Shown here: piece after piece, positions 49,001-52,000 of the stretch | Numbering within the stretch: the stretch's first letter is position 1 | Layout of the letters: every line of letters starts with the position of its first letter | Origin: Escherichia coli | Lineage (GTDB): Bacteria > Pseudomonadota > Gammaproteobacteria > Enterobacterales > Enterobacteriaceae | Length of the DNA stretch: 64,000 nucleotides | NCBI RefSeq assembly: GCF_041886205.1 | Contig: NZ_CP169029.1 | Reading direction: 5' to 3' (one strand) | Made by a program: the position numbers

Positions 49001-52000
49001 AGTGGAAAACTTTTCCGCCAGAGATGACATATTTTGGGCAAGCGTAATAACACTAATGCCGTGCAGGAAGTAGCTGAAGTAAATACAAAGAACAGCCAGG
49101 ATAAATGGTGTGCTGAAAGCCTTATTTTGAGACATTTTCACAGCTCCTTGCTGAAAGATTATTTCGTTACCGTACGTATTGTTCTCCGACGGTTTACATA
49201 ATTACTATACTGAAGATGATTATCCCTGGGTATATGGCATAAAGTTTATGTTTCCAGGAATATTGCATGTCATAGTTTGTTTTTGATCGCGATTTTCCTT
49301 AGTTAGCGCAGAAAGAGTTATTTATCCGTAAGATCTTGCATGACATGAAAAGAATATTGCATTACCCACCCGAAGCGACATTTTCCTTTAGCGAGTGATG
49401 CCGCGTTTTTTTGCGGCTGCGTAAGCCGATAAACAGTGCCAGTAAAAAACCGATGGCAGCGATGGCGGTATCGAACCACATAATATCGGCAATACTTCTT
49501 TGGGACAGATGAGCCGTAATCAACGGAATAGTAAAGGTCGCAATACTGCCCGCACTGTAATAGATCCCTGTAGCTTTACCTTTAGCGTAAGGGAAACGTT
49601 CAGCCATTAACGTCAAGCCAATTTGCACAACACCTCCAGCAGAGGTAAAACCAATGACAAAAGCAAATATTATCACCACATAAAATGTGGGATGCAGGCA
49701 GACGGTAAACAGACCAATAAATGAGATAAAGGTGTACAGCATCAGTAATGTTGTTGGGCGAACGGTATTACGAATGAGTGGAGCGGTAATAAATACACAA
49801 AGCAGCGAACCCACGGTGTAGATACTGAGTAGTTTGATCGACATAGTGTATGACATGCCTGTAACAAATTGTCCGTACTGTGCCAGCCACTGGCTAACCA
49901 GATAAAACGTTGCCATTGAGATATAGCCATATAAGGTATAACTGGCTAAATCGATAATTGAACAGCGATGTTCCGTAGAGCTGGTGGTTTTCTTTATGAC
50001 AGGTAAGCGACGACCCGGATGGGGTGGGAACGTACAACGGTATAAAAACAGAGCGTTAATAAACATAATGCCTGCAGCAATCATAAAAGACCAACCGAAC
50101 CACAGTTCAGCCCACACTAACAGGCTAATGATTAGCGGTAATAAAAATTGTCCGCTGGAAACAAATGCTTTAATTAAAATATTGGCTGTCCCAGGTGAGC
50201 GTGGAAAAGCTTCCATCAAACTGGGATAAGTGCCTGCATCGAGAAAACTGTTTGCCATTCCCGCCAGAAAGCCAAAAACATAAGCGATAATGATGTTATT
50301 GGTCTGCAGGATGCCAAAAAAGAAGGCCATATAGCAGCACATCCCGAGCATGATAAAAGGGCGGCGACCAAAGCGATCGGATAATAATCCTGCAAAAAGC
50401 AAGACACTTAATCGACCAATGCCCAGCGATGAGATAACTATCGAGACGCCCGCGGCATTAGTCTGCCAAAGTGTCTCCAGCGAGGCCATATTCAGGCTCA
50501 TCAAAATGACGCCCATACCATGCACCAGGTAATTAAAATACAACCCAAGTGCGGTAGGGTAATAGGGATTTTTCATAGGTTCTACTTAGCAAAGGTGCTT
50601 TAAAAAGTGTAGCGATGTTGTGTCAGTATCCATTCATTATTGTTGTAACAACGACAATTCCTTTCTGTGGAAAAATTAACAAAGCCGCTCCAGATCGTGT
50701 GCATATAATTCAGCGGCTACCGATTGATAGATCTTCCAGTCAATAAAATTGCCATCAGGGTAGACTCGTTGAAATGCGGTTAAGTCGGGGAAAAAACGCA
50801 TGGTGTTGTTGCCGATGCGGTTATTTATTTTCTCTATGATGGCATGAAGATGTTTTTTTCTTTGCTGACGCATAGCCAACAGTTGCTCGACTACACGATC
50901 AGGAATGGCACACTTGCCATTTTCCCATTGACGCCAGCTTTCACTGTCACCGGTCTGGGCAATCCAGGTCGCGCATTCATCAATAGTCATGGCAAAAATA
51001 TGGCGGAGTGCCTGGAGTTCATAAGCGTTCATCGTGTAATGGCTGCATGAAATAAACAATAAAATATAAATAACATTATCAGCCTGCTGACGGCTTGAAG
51101 AGAGTCACAGTATCTTGTGCAACATTATTGGAAAGAGTGAGGGGCGAGGTAGCGAAGTGGAAAAATGTTAAAAAAAAGCCCATCGTGGGAGATGGGCAAA
51201 GACTACACACAGCAATTCGTTGTTTCACTCAGGGGATTTCCATGCTTATAAATCAATATGTTGATTTATAACCGTGAGCTAATAGTAGGCATACGGACTT
51301 TTTGCGTCGATCAGATTCGTCTCATTAGTTTAAAAACTGTAAAGAATTTGCGACAGGTACTACCAGCTGAATGGCGGTAAGCAGGAAAATATGGGGAAGA
51401 GCAAGCAAATATCAATTAGCGGGGGTTAACAATCAGGCGGCAGAGCCGCCTGATGAGAAATTACTTATTCGGTTTCTCGATTTCGCCAAGTTCTTCGAGA
51501 ATTTCTTCCGGTTGGTCCGTCGGCGGCGGGACTTCTTCCACCCACGCGGCAAACAGACGCCAGGAAACGGCTAACAGAACCGGACCAATAAACAGACCGA
51601 TCATCCCGAAAGCAATCAAACCACCAATAACACCAGAGAGGATCAGGATCAGCGGTAAATCGGCACCCATGCGAATTAACATTGGGCGGATGACGTTATC
51701 CAGCGTGCCAACCACACCGCTCCACACTAACAATACCGTTCCCCAGGTGGTATCGCCAGTCCAGTAGAGCCAGATAATCGCCGGAATCAGTACCGGCAAC
51801 GGGCCAAGCTGGACAAGGCAGGAGAGGATCATTAACACCGTTAGCAACGTTGCATAAGGTACGCCGGATACGGCGAGGCCGATACCGCCAAGCACTGCCT
51901 GTACTAACGCCGTCACCACCACACCCAGCGCCACCGCGCGGATAGCCTGTGCCGCCAGCAGCACGGCGGCATCTCCGCGAACGCCTGCCAGACGGGTTGC

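What the first reader, a model, noticed from the sequence alone, without database searches (positions are those of the whole stretch)
51172..51275. RprA sRNA present and apparently intact between ydiL and ydiK
The minus strand carries a sequence matching RprA, including the 3' terminator stem and U-tail. It is intact despite nearby IS activity; listed so that this non-coding gene is not missed.
Basis: partly seen in the sequence, partly recalled or inferred. Interest (0 to 1): 0.2.

Follow-up and report, generated by a model that had tools for sequence, protein, structure and literature searches.

The report
Intact RprA small RNA gene
This is the well-known RprA regulatory RNA gene, identical base for base to the E. 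coli K-12 copy and in its usual place between ydiK and ydiL, so the finding is correct but ordinary.

Summary
The Rfam RprA model (RF00034) matches window 51168-51275 (minus strand) over its full length at 118.5 bits, against a gathering score of 70. The 106-nt K-12 MG1655 rprA (b4431) occurs at 51170-51275(-) with 0 mismatches. The flanking DNA from 51159 to 51422 is also identical to K-12. It includes the RcsB box TGAGACGAATCTGA at -49..-36. ydiK (upstream) and ydiL (downstream) encode proteins identical to K-12, and the 9 kb around the gene aligns with K-12 without gaps. "Nearby IS activity" is real but not close. Three IS1 copies lie in the window; the nearest (45226-45993, in ydiF) is 5.2 kb away. 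Mechanism, from the literature plus in-silico checks here: RprA is an Rcs-induced, Hfq-dependent sRNA. It opens the inhibitory hairpin of the rpoS leader and represses csgD, ydaM, hdeD and narP. Novelty: already known; interest low. One side observation lies outside the window. RprA's invariant 3' core plus a terminator recurs, unannotated, in many temperate-phage immunity regions and in some N4-like phages.

The parts
51170..51275 (-). rprA gene (RprA sRNA). +1 is at 51275 and the 3' end lies in the U-tail. The Rfam/PGAP extent runs to 51168.
   Evidence: RF00034 at 118.5 bits, full length. Exact match to K-12 b4431. Annotated as rprA in E. coli genomes that are 100% identical over 51100-51400.
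51246..51271 (-). 5' stem-loop SL1 (RprA nt 5-30): perfect 11-bp inverted repeat UUAUAAAUCAA / UUGAUUUAUAA with a 4-nt loop.
   Evidence: Present in the MFE and centroid folds. In 75 homologues, 83-86% of cells are paired and 5 of 8 outer pairs show changes on both sides. It is better supported than the 4-bp SL1 in Rfam's consensus, which is 65.8% paired. The literature calls the 5' stem-loop the largest of three, about 10 bp (PMC6202311).
51204..51244 (-). Central region, RprA nt 32-72. It contains the small hairpin CAUGG...CCCUG (Rfam SL2) and the stretch complementary to the rpoS leader.
   Evidence: Its best duplex anywhere in the K-12 rpoS leader (-567..+30) is with -135..-93, at -32.4 kcal/mol; shuffles average -24.1 +/- 3.0 and 3 of 100 reach it. 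SL2 is 80% paired across homologues.
51195..51216 (-). Highly conserved core AUUGCUGUGUGUAGUCUUUGCC (RprA nt 60-81). It lies in the 3' part that survives as the 47-nt processed form.
   Evidence: The exact 22-mer was found in at least 120 species-representative genomes across Enterobacterales. The processed form is described as the last 47 nt in PMC9262595.
51170..51197 (-). Rho-independent terminator: stem GCCCAUC / GAUGGGC (51178-51197) followed by a U8 tail. The tail is the presumed Hfq-binding 3' end.
   Evidence: Terminator scan. 99.8% of cells paired in 75 homologues, with 2 pairs showing compensatory changes. Hfq binding is inferred from general knowledge of Hfq-dependent sRNAs and was not tested.
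51311..51324 (-). RcsB box TGAGACGAATCTGA at -49..-36, abutting the weak -35 region.
   Evidence: It matches the consensus TN(G/A)GAN4TC(T/C)NA, and its 14 nt are identical to the Salmonella PrprA DNA co-crystallised with RcsB (PMC7913699). Position. A consensus box sits at the equivalent distance in 109 of 114 homologous loci; about 0.0008 per locus is expected by chance.
51282..51310 (-). Core promoter, inferred: -10 TACTAT (51282-51287, -12..-7) and a poor -35 TCGACG (51305-51310, -35..-30).
   Evidence: Read directly from the sequence relative to the K-12 +1, and identical to K-12. The generic sigma-70 scan did not report it, as expected for an activator-dependent promoter. The hexamer assignment is my inference.
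51461..52573 (-). ydiK (AI-2E family transporter), upstream neighbour on the same strand. This is the conserved synteny anchor of rprA.
   Evidence: 370 aa with 0 differences from K-12. A ydiK homologue lies upstream on the same strand in 105 of 120 homologous loci.
50676..51032 (-). ydiL (DUF1870 protein), downstream neighbour on the same strand.
   Evidence: 118 aa with 0 differences from K-12. It is found downstream in only 9 of 120 loci (Escherichia and Citrobacter), so it is a lineage-specific neighbour.

Best explanation
Window 51170-51275(-) is the chromosomal rprA gene. It encodes the ~105-nt Hfq-dependent small RNA RprA, identical in sequence to the E. coli K-12 gene. Transcription starts at 51275 from a weak sigma-70 promoter that depends on RcsB bound at -49..-36, so the RNA is made when the Rcs envelope-stress phosphorelay is active. 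It ends at the intrinsic terminator at 51197-51170. The central region (nt ~33-71) pairs with the upstream strand of the inhibitory hairpin in the long rpoS 5' leader. That frees the ribosome-binding site and raises sigma-S synthesis. By pairing near other ribosome-binding sites, RprA represses csgD, ydaM/dgcM, hdeD and narP. RNase E cleavage leaves a 47-nt 3' fragment that carries the invariant core and is itself active. Shown here: identity, position, promoter box, terminator, structural conservation, and in-silico complementarity to the K-12 rpoS leader. Taken from the literature or inferred: expression, Hfq dependence, processing and the regulatory outcomes in this particular strain.
For: Family model at 118.5 bits against GA 70, full length. 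106/106 identity to K-12 b4431. No difference from K-12 anywhere in 51159-51422. The same 301 nt are 100% identical in many E. coli genomes; the region is matched in 5423 of 5426 complete genomes, and every listed hit is annotated rprA. K-12 gene order ydiJ / ydiK-rprA-ydiL-ydiM-ydiN-ydiB-aroD is kept over an ungapped 9 kb. The RcsB box is identical to the crystallised PrprA site and conserved in 109/114 homologous loci. Terminator. The three stem-loops are supported by folding and by covariation in 75 homologues: 88.1% of cells paired against 28-45% for slid controls, and 0/500 shuffles reach it. The best pairing site in the rpoS leader is -135..-93. That same segment pairs with -18..+17 (RBS and AUG) in the predicted leader fold. 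Functions come from the literature: activation of rpoS and ricI; repression of csgD, ydaM, hdeD and narP; control by Rcs, CpxR and LrhA; the 47-nt processed form; three stem-loops and RNase E cleavage (PMC5861431; PMC9262595; PMC6202311).
Against: Nothing in the sequence argues against it. There are limits. rpoS, rcsB/C/D, hfq, csgD and the other partners lie outside the window, so I cannot tell whether they are intact in this IS1-rich genome. The rpoS pairing was computed with the K-12 leader, not this strain's. The single-sequence fold is only modestly better than shuffles (z = -1.99, 8 of 200 shuffles as good), which is usual for an A/U-rich sRNA. The generic promoter scan did not detect the promoter.
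Confidence: 0.97

Rival explanations
1. The gene is intact in sequence but functionally idle in this host. Its inputs (Rcs phosphorelay, Hfq) or main outputs (rpoS leader, csgD/curli genes) may have been damaged elsewhere in a genome undergoing IS1-driven decay. If so, the perfect conservation reflects recent common ancestry with E. coli and not current selection.
For: The window carries three IS1 insertions in 64 kb and at least two freshly broken genes, ydiF and rflP. That is the pattern of Shigella-like reductive evolution. The locus is only 0.7% diverged from K-12. At that divergence about 0.7 substitutions are expected in 106 nt, so zero changes does not prove selection within this lineage.
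Against: The core, the terminator, the RcsB box and the ydiK linkage are kept across the whole order Enterobacterales, including host-restricted symbionts such as Arsenophonus. The gene therefore tends to be retained even in decaying genomes. 54 of the 57 K-12 genes checked in the window are full length, apart from one cut by the window edge. No partner gene could be inspected.
Confidence: 0.05
2. The match is only the ydiK terminator or 3'UTR, or a chance resemblance, and is not an independent sRNA gene.
For: It lies 186 nt downstream of ydiK on the same strand, and ydiK linkage is nearly universal.
Against: The full-length CM match has E = 1.6e-16. A separate 10-bp hairpin at 51432-51454 follows the ydiK stop codon. 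A dedicated RcsB box sits at a fixed distance upstream of the sRNA in 109/114 species. The gene is annotated as independent, with its own +1, in K-12.
Confidence: 0.01
3. The plus-strand ORF 51095-51271 (58 aa, TTG start), antisense to rprA, is the real gene.
For: It appears in the mechanical ORF list.
Against: The corresponding frame contains a stop codon in 63 of 75 homologous sequences. It has a TTG start and no annotation in any E. coli genome hit.
Confidence: 0.005

Closest known systems
RprA of Escherichia coli K-12 MG1655 (b4431; Rfam RF00034)
   Same: Identical over all 106 nt. The promoter region is identical to at least -147. Same neighbours and orientation (ydiK upstream, ydiL downstream), same terminator.
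   Different: Nothing within the gene. The nearest differences are single substitutions 10 nt beyond the U-tail (51158, G>A) and at -148 (51423, A>C). The host chromosome differs from K-12 by three IS1 insertions in this 64-kb stretch.
RprA of Salmonella enterica (106 nt) and other Enterobacterales
   Same: Same three-stem-loop layout, same invariant core (nt 60-81), same 14-nt RcsB box as the Salmonella PrprA used for crystallography, same ydiK linkage.
   Different: Homologues differ in the SL1 loop and stem (with compensatory changes) and in the terminator loop. In Morganellaceae, Yersiniaceae and similar families, the 5' half including the rpoS-pairing stretch no longer aligns. ydiL is absent downstream in most genera.
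DsrA and ArcZ (the other Hfq-dependent sRNA activators of rpoS translation)
   Same: They work the same way, pairing with the upstream arm of the rpoS leader hairpin to free the RBS. PMC5861431 lists DsrA, RprA, ArcZ and OxyS acting on the rpoS 5'UTR.
   Different: Unrelated sequences, loci and inducing signals (established knowledge, not tested here). They are not members of RF00034.
Phage-borne elements carrying the RprA 3' core (for example Escherichia phage LLS, L127 about 2537-2673)
   Same: They share the exact 22-23 nt AUUGCUGUGUGUAGUCUUUGCC(C), directly followed by a terminator hairpin and U-tail. This corresponds roughly to the processed 47-nt RprA.
   Different: They have no SL1, no rpoS-pairing stretch, no ydiK and no canonical RprA 5' half. 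They score 40.8 bits, below GA 70, on the RprA model. Most lie downstream of a CI-type repressor gene. They are not in this window.

Membership tests
RprA sRNA (Rfam RF00034) | Covariance-model score at or above the curated gathering threshold (70 bits), over the full model | tested here: met
   118.5 bits, model positions 1-108 of 108, E = 1.6e-16.
RprA sRNA (Rfam RF00034) | Sequence identity to the experimentally characterised type gene (E. coli K-12 rprA, b4431) | tested here: met
   106/106 identical, found as an exact substring at 51170-51275(-).
RprA sRNA (Rfam RF00034) | Genomic position: downstream of ydiK on the same strand (ydiK-ydiL intergenic region in Escherichia) | tested here: met
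   ydiK is at 51461-52573(-) and ydiL at 50676-51032(-), both identical in protein sequence to K-12. ydiK is upstream on the same strand in 105/120 homologous loci.
RprA sRNA (Rfam RF00034) | Three stem-loops, the last a Rho-independent terminator with a U-tail | tested here: met
   Fold; terminator scan. Covariation on 75 homologues: terminator 99.8% paired, SL1 83-86%, SL2 80%; slid controls 28-45%. The literature description agrees.
RprA sRNA (Rfam RF00034) | RcsB-dependent promoter: an RcsB box just upstream of the -35 region | tested here: met
   TGAGACGAATCTGA at -49..-36 fits TN(G/A)GAN4TC(T/C)NA and equals the crystallised PrprA site. It is conserved in 109/114 loci. Only presence of the site was tested, not RcsB binding or activation.
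RprA sRNA (Rfam RF00034) | Complementarity to the upstream arm of the rpoS leader hairpin (anti-antisense activation) | tested here: met
   The best duplex of RprA nt 32-72 over the whole K-12 leader is at -135..-93, at -32.4 kcal/mol against -24.1 +/- 3.0 for shuffles. That segment pairs with -18..+17 in the predicted leader fold. Caveat: the K-12 leader was used, because this genome's rpoS is outside the window.
RprA sRNA (Rfam RF00034) | Hfq binding and Hfq-dependent action | not testable with these tools
   Only the usual sequence correlates can be seen: a terminator hairpin plus U8 tail, preceded by a U-rich stretch.
RprA sRNA (Rfam RF00034) | Expression as a ~105-nt transcript with a ~47-nt RNase E-processed form | not testable with these tools
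   Known for E. coli and Salmonella. No expression data exist for the source strain.

The most novel reading that the evidence does not exclude
RprA's invariant 3' seed (nt 60-81, present here at 51195-51216) may be copied by mobile elements. The exact 22-mer, followed by a terminator of varying sequence, occurs in at least 120 IMG/VR viral contigs with no ydiK nearby. In 95 of those 120 it lies within 1.5 kb downstream of a CI-type repressor gene on the same strand. It also occurs in isolated temperate coliphages (LLS, Flotzy, Eeyore, vB_EcoM-606R2) and in lytic N4-like Erwinia phages. No Rfam family covers these elements, and I found no description in the papers I could search. If they are expressed sRNAs, lysogens would make a mimic of processed RprA that acts on RprA's 3'-seed targets independently of Rcs signalling. 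The chromosomal gene in this window would then be one side of a phage-host regulatory overlap. None of this changes what the window element is.
Probability: 0.3. Interest if true: 0.55.

Novelty: already known. Interest (0 to 1): 0.08.

Why it matters
For the window itself it matters only for annotation completeness. A well-studied envelope-stress sRNA is present, undamaged and in its normal context in an IS1-rich E. coli/Shigella-like chromosome, so Rcs-to-sigma-S signalling through RprA is at least encoded. It opens no new question. The comparative work gave three by-products of modest value. First, the RcsB box and the ydiK linkage are conserved across Enterobacterales even where the 5' half of the RNA has diverged. 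Second, the 11-bp 5' hairpin is better supported by covariation than the 4-bp helix in Rfam's consensus. Third, many phage genomes carry the RprA 3' seed plus a terminator, which may deserve its own study.

Tried and rejected
(1) Generic sigma-70 scan of 50900-51600. It did not report the rprA promoter. It gave only two overlapping weak hits at 51415-51386, about -111 to -140. I read this as the known activator dependence of the promoter, not as its absence, because the RcsB box and the K-12 +1 are present.

(2) RNA duplex prediction with full-length RprA against 230 nt of rpoS leader gave an unrealistic end-to-end duplex. I replaced it with a windowed search using only nt 32-72.

(3) RNAalifold on 75 homologues recovered only the terminator and the small invariant hairpin, not SL1, because MAFFT shifts the Erwiniaceae rows. 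Counting named pairs was used instead.

(4) The Rfam consensus SL1 (4 bp, nt 2-5 with 19-22) is paired in only 65.8% of cells. I rejected it in favour of the 11-bp hairpin.

(5) Attempt to identify the source lineage from the IS1/ydiF junction (window 44900-45330). No complete E. coli genome has the same contiguous junction; the 100%-coverage hits are joined pieces spanning 530-1107 bp, and are therefore different insertions. The source is not identified. A Shigella-like lineage is my guess from the IS1 density, and Shigella genomes are not in that collection.

(6) Plus-strand ORF 51095-51271: rejected, with stops in 63/75 homologues.

(7) Papenfort et al. 2015 (PMC4553797), the key paper on the two seed regions, is not held. 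Statements about ricI and the processed form are taken from papers that cite it.

(8) Literature searches for phage-borne RprA-like RNAs returned nothing relevant. That is absence from the held library only.

Full report

Yes. A scan of the whole window against Rfam 15 at gathering thresholds gives one RprA hit (RF00034). It lies at 51168-51275 on the minus strand, covers model positions 1-108 of 108, and scores 118.5 bits against a curated threshold of 70 (E = 1.6e-16).

The annotated K-12 MG1655 gene rprA (b4431, 1770372-1770477, 106 nt) occurs as an exact substring at window 51170-51275(-). The 22-nt core of the RNA occurs once in the window, even when 3 mismatches are allowed, and never in shuffles.

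They stop 2-4 nt early, inside the U-tail.

**2. Surroundings**

A 9,001-nt K-12 segment (ydiJ to aroD) aligns with window 55647-46647 without a single gap and with 61 substitutions, which is 99.3% identity.

- None of the substitutions lies in rprA.
- The nearest are at 51158 (10 nt beyond the U-tail) and 51423 (position -148). The whole promoter region is therefore identical to K-12 as well.
- ydiK (51461-52573, minus) and ydiL (50676-51032, minus) encode proteins identical to K-12.
- A perfect 10-bp hairpin at 51432-51454 follows the ydiK stop codon. rprA is therefore not simply the end of ydiK.
- The plus-strand ORF 51095-51271 from the mechanical list is not conserved: 63 of 75 homologues have a stop in that frame.

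Across 5,426 complete E. coli genomes, 5,423 contain the 301-nt region 51100-51400. Identity is 99% or more in 5,347 records. In every listed hit the matching feature is annotated as rprA.

**3. The "nearby IS activity"**

Against K-12 the window consists of four colinear blocks separated by three insertions.

| IS1 copy | Identity to K-12 IS1A | Target duplication | Insertion site |
|---|---|---|---|
| 16141-16908 | 99.2% | GCTCTGATG | arpB pseudogene |
| 28614-29381 | 97.0% | CGAACCGTT | rflP/ydiV |
| 45226-45993 | 99.2% | CCGCTTCC | codons ~17-21 of ydiF |

Each is a full 768-bp IS1 flanked by the duplication shown. The closest copy is 5.2 kb from rprA.

I checked 57 K-12 proteins in the window.

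- Only ydiF and rflP (both hit by IS1) and ydjO (split or divergent) are not recovered as one full-length match.
- lpp and chbR are also incomplete, but they are cut by the window ends.

I could not identify the source strain, because the exact IS1/ydiF junction is absent from complete E. coli genomes. A Shigella-like lineage is my guess from the IS1 density.

**4. Anatomy and mechanism**

*Promoter.* Relative to the K-12 +1 (51275), the sequence TGAGACGAATCTGA lies at -49..-36 (51324-51311). It fits the RcsB homodimer box TN(G/A)GAN4TC(T/C)NA. Its 14 nt are identical to those in the Salmonella rprA promoter fragment (-33 to -53) that was co-crystallised with phosphorylated RcsB (PMC7913699).

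The box abuts a poor -35 (TCGACG), with TACTAT at -12..-7. These hexamer assignments are my reading of the sequence. A generic sigma-70 scan does not pick the promoter up, which fits its activator dependence.

*RNA structure.* The fold has three parts:

- a perfect 11-bp 5' hairpin (nt 5-30);
- a weak central hairpin;
- the terminator.

*Target pairing.* The central single-stranded region (nt 32-72) finds its best partner in the entire 597-nt K-12 rpoS leader at -135..-93. The energy is -32.4 kcal/mol, against -24.1 +/- 3.0 for shuffled RprA segments, and 3 of 100 shuffles are as good. In the predicted fold of the leader, that same segment is the strand that sequesters -18..+17, meaning the RBS and start codon. 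This is the published anti-antisense mechanism of rpoS activation.

*From the literature.*

- RprA activates rpoS and, in Salmonella, ricI.
- It represses csgD, ydaM, hdeD and narP.
- It is induced by Rcs and CpxAR and repressed by LrhA.
- It coexists with a processed form comprising its last 47 nt.
- It has three stem-loops with an RNase E site in a loop.

Sources: PMC5861431; PMC9262595; PMC6202311.

Expression, Hfq dependence and regulatory effects in this strain are inferred, not shown. rpoS, rcs, hfq and the targets all lie outside the window.

**5. Comparative evidence**

They span Enterobacteriaceae, Erwiniaceae, Pectobacteriaceae, Yersiniaceae, Hafniaceae, Morganellaceae and Arsenophonus.

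- A ydiK homologue lies upstream on the same strand in 105 of 120 loci. ydiL lies downstream in only 9.
- A consensus RcsB box lies 85-135 nt upstream of the core in 109 of 114 loci with enough upstream sequence. The distance peaks at 108-109 nt, as in E. coli, and the chance expectation is about 0.0008 per locus.

Pair counts on 75 alignable homologues:

| Element | Cells paired | Notes |
|---|---|---|
| Terminator | 99.8% | two pairs with compensatory changes |
| 11-bp SL1 | 83-86% | five pairs changed on both sides |
| SL2 | 80% | |
| Whole structure | 88.1% | 28-45% when partners are slid; 0 of 500 shuffles reach it |

The 4-bp SL1 drawn in Rfam's consensus is paired in only 65.8% of cells. 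The long hairpin is therefore the better model, in agreement with the structural literature.

One caveat applies. The core is invariant in my sample by construction, because it was the search pattern.

**6. Comparison with what is known, and verdict**

Every testable defining feature of the RprA family is met: model score, identity to the type gene, synteny, structure, RcsB box and rpoS complementarity. Hfq binding and expression cannot be tested here.

This is the known gene and nothing about it is unusual. Novelty: already known. Interest: low. The only live rival is that the gene is intact but idle, because partners elsewhere in a decaying genome are broken (about 5%). That cannot be judged from this window.

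**7. Side observation, outside the window**

Three genomes in the species scan carry a second copy of the core plus a terminator, away from ydiK (L052, L090, L110). In L090 and L110 it lies about 170-370 nt downstream of a CI-type repressor gene on the same strand (HTH_3 with or without Peptidase_S24). CII/YdaT-type genes lie nearby.

Isolated phages carry it too:

- Escherichia phages LLS, Flotzy and Eeyore. In LLS it lies between the prophage repressor and a yfdP-family gene.
- vB_EcoM-606R2 and relatives.
- Lytic N4-like Erwinia phages such as Ea9-2. There it lies directly after thymidylate synthase.

- None has ydiK within 800 nt upstream.
- 95 have a homologue of one of three CI-type repressors ending within 1.5 kb upstream on the same strand.
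- The terminator stems differ between groups while remaining paired.

No Rfam family reaches its gathering score on eight of these loci. The RprA model reaches only 40.8 bits on the LLS element, through its 3' half. The LLS-type element is present and unannotated in 4 of 5,426 E. coli genomes.

Two literature searches found no description, but the key 2015 paper on RprA's seeds is not held. I therefore cannot say whether this is new. These elements look like phage-borne mimics of processed RprA. That is a lead, not a result, and it has no bearing on the identity of the window element.

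Noticed in passing
window 16141-16908, 28614-29381, 45226-45993: Three full-length IS1 copies (768 bp, 97.0-99.2% identical to K-12 IS1A) with target duplications GCTCTGATG, CGAACCGTT and CCGCTTCC. 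They are simple insertions into arpB (already a pseudogene in K-12), rflP/ydiV (anti-FlhDC factor, split at about residue 180) and the 5' end of ydiF. Three IS1 copies in 64 kb of otherwise K-12-colinear DNA suggests a Shigella-like or otherwise IS1-expanded lineage.
   Followed up: partly
window 6182-6983: ydjO is recovered as two overlapping tblastn segments (residues 1-133 at 87% identity, residues 120-267 at 95%) and not as one full-length match. This suggests a frameshift or a divergent, possibly decayed copy.
   Followed up: no
window 56879-56939 (+), 20817-20941 (+), 24781-24939 (+), 3054-3096 (-): Other Rfam hits above gathering score in the window: rydB sRNA (81.6 bits), the pheST leader (75 bits), STnc540 (67.4 bits, with a large internal deletion relative to the model) and ES036/CssrF (55.4 bits).
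   Followed up: no
window 51246-51271 (RprA nt 5-30): The Rfam RF00034 consensus draws the 5' helix as 4 bp (nt 2-5 with 19-22), which is paired in only 65.8% of cells across 75 homologues. The 11-bp hairpin nt 5-15/20-30 is paired in 83-86%, shows compensatory changes, and matches the '~10 bp, largest stem-loop' of the RNase E-RprA crystal paper. This is a possible curation improvement.
   Followed up: yes
window 51432-51454: Perfect 10-bp inverted repeat ATCAGGCGGC-AGA-GCCGCCTGAT, beginning 7 nt after the ydiK stop codon and with no T-run. It is probably the ydiK 3' end or an mRNA stabiliser, and it separates ydiK from the rprA promoter.
   Followed up: no
L090:307-414(-), L110:6583-6690(-), L052:1177-1284(+); L127 about 2537-2673(+) (phage LLS); L128:1501-1544(+) (Erwinia phage Ea9-2); L129:2001-2046(+); L130-L249 (IMG/VR): The invariant RprA 3' core AUUGCUGUGUGUAGUCUUUGCC plus a terminator of variable sequence, roughly the 47-nt processed RprA, recurs away from ydiK in prophages and phages. 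It occurs in at least 120 IMG/VR contigs, 95 of 120 with a CI-type repressor gene ending within 1.5 kb upstream on the same strand. It also occurs in the temperate coliphages LLS, Flotzy, Eeyore and 606R2 and in lytic N4-like Erwinia phages. It is unannotated, no Rfam family reaches gathering score, the RprA CM scores 40.8 bits (below 70), and no description was found in the held literature.
   Followed up: partly
L001 (NZ_CP026085.1, labelled E. coli DH5alpha) against L002 (MG1655): The record labelled DH5alpha differs from MG1655 at 98 of 9,001 positions across ydiJ-aroD, and it matches the window perfectly over 51100-51400, including the 51158 variant. That is unexpected for a K-12 derivative. 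Either this chromosomal segment is of non-K-12 origin in that strain, or the record is mislabelled.
   Followed up: no
A1 alignment: L008, L011, L015, L030, L040, L044, L066, L078 and others: In Morganellaceae, Yersinia, Photorhabdus/Xenorhabdus and Arsenophonus, the RprA core, terminator, ydiK linkage and RcsB box are kept. The 5' half, including the stretch that pairs with the E. coli rpoS leader, does not align. The conserved ancestral function may therefore reside in the 3' seed and not in rpoS activation.
   Followed up: partly
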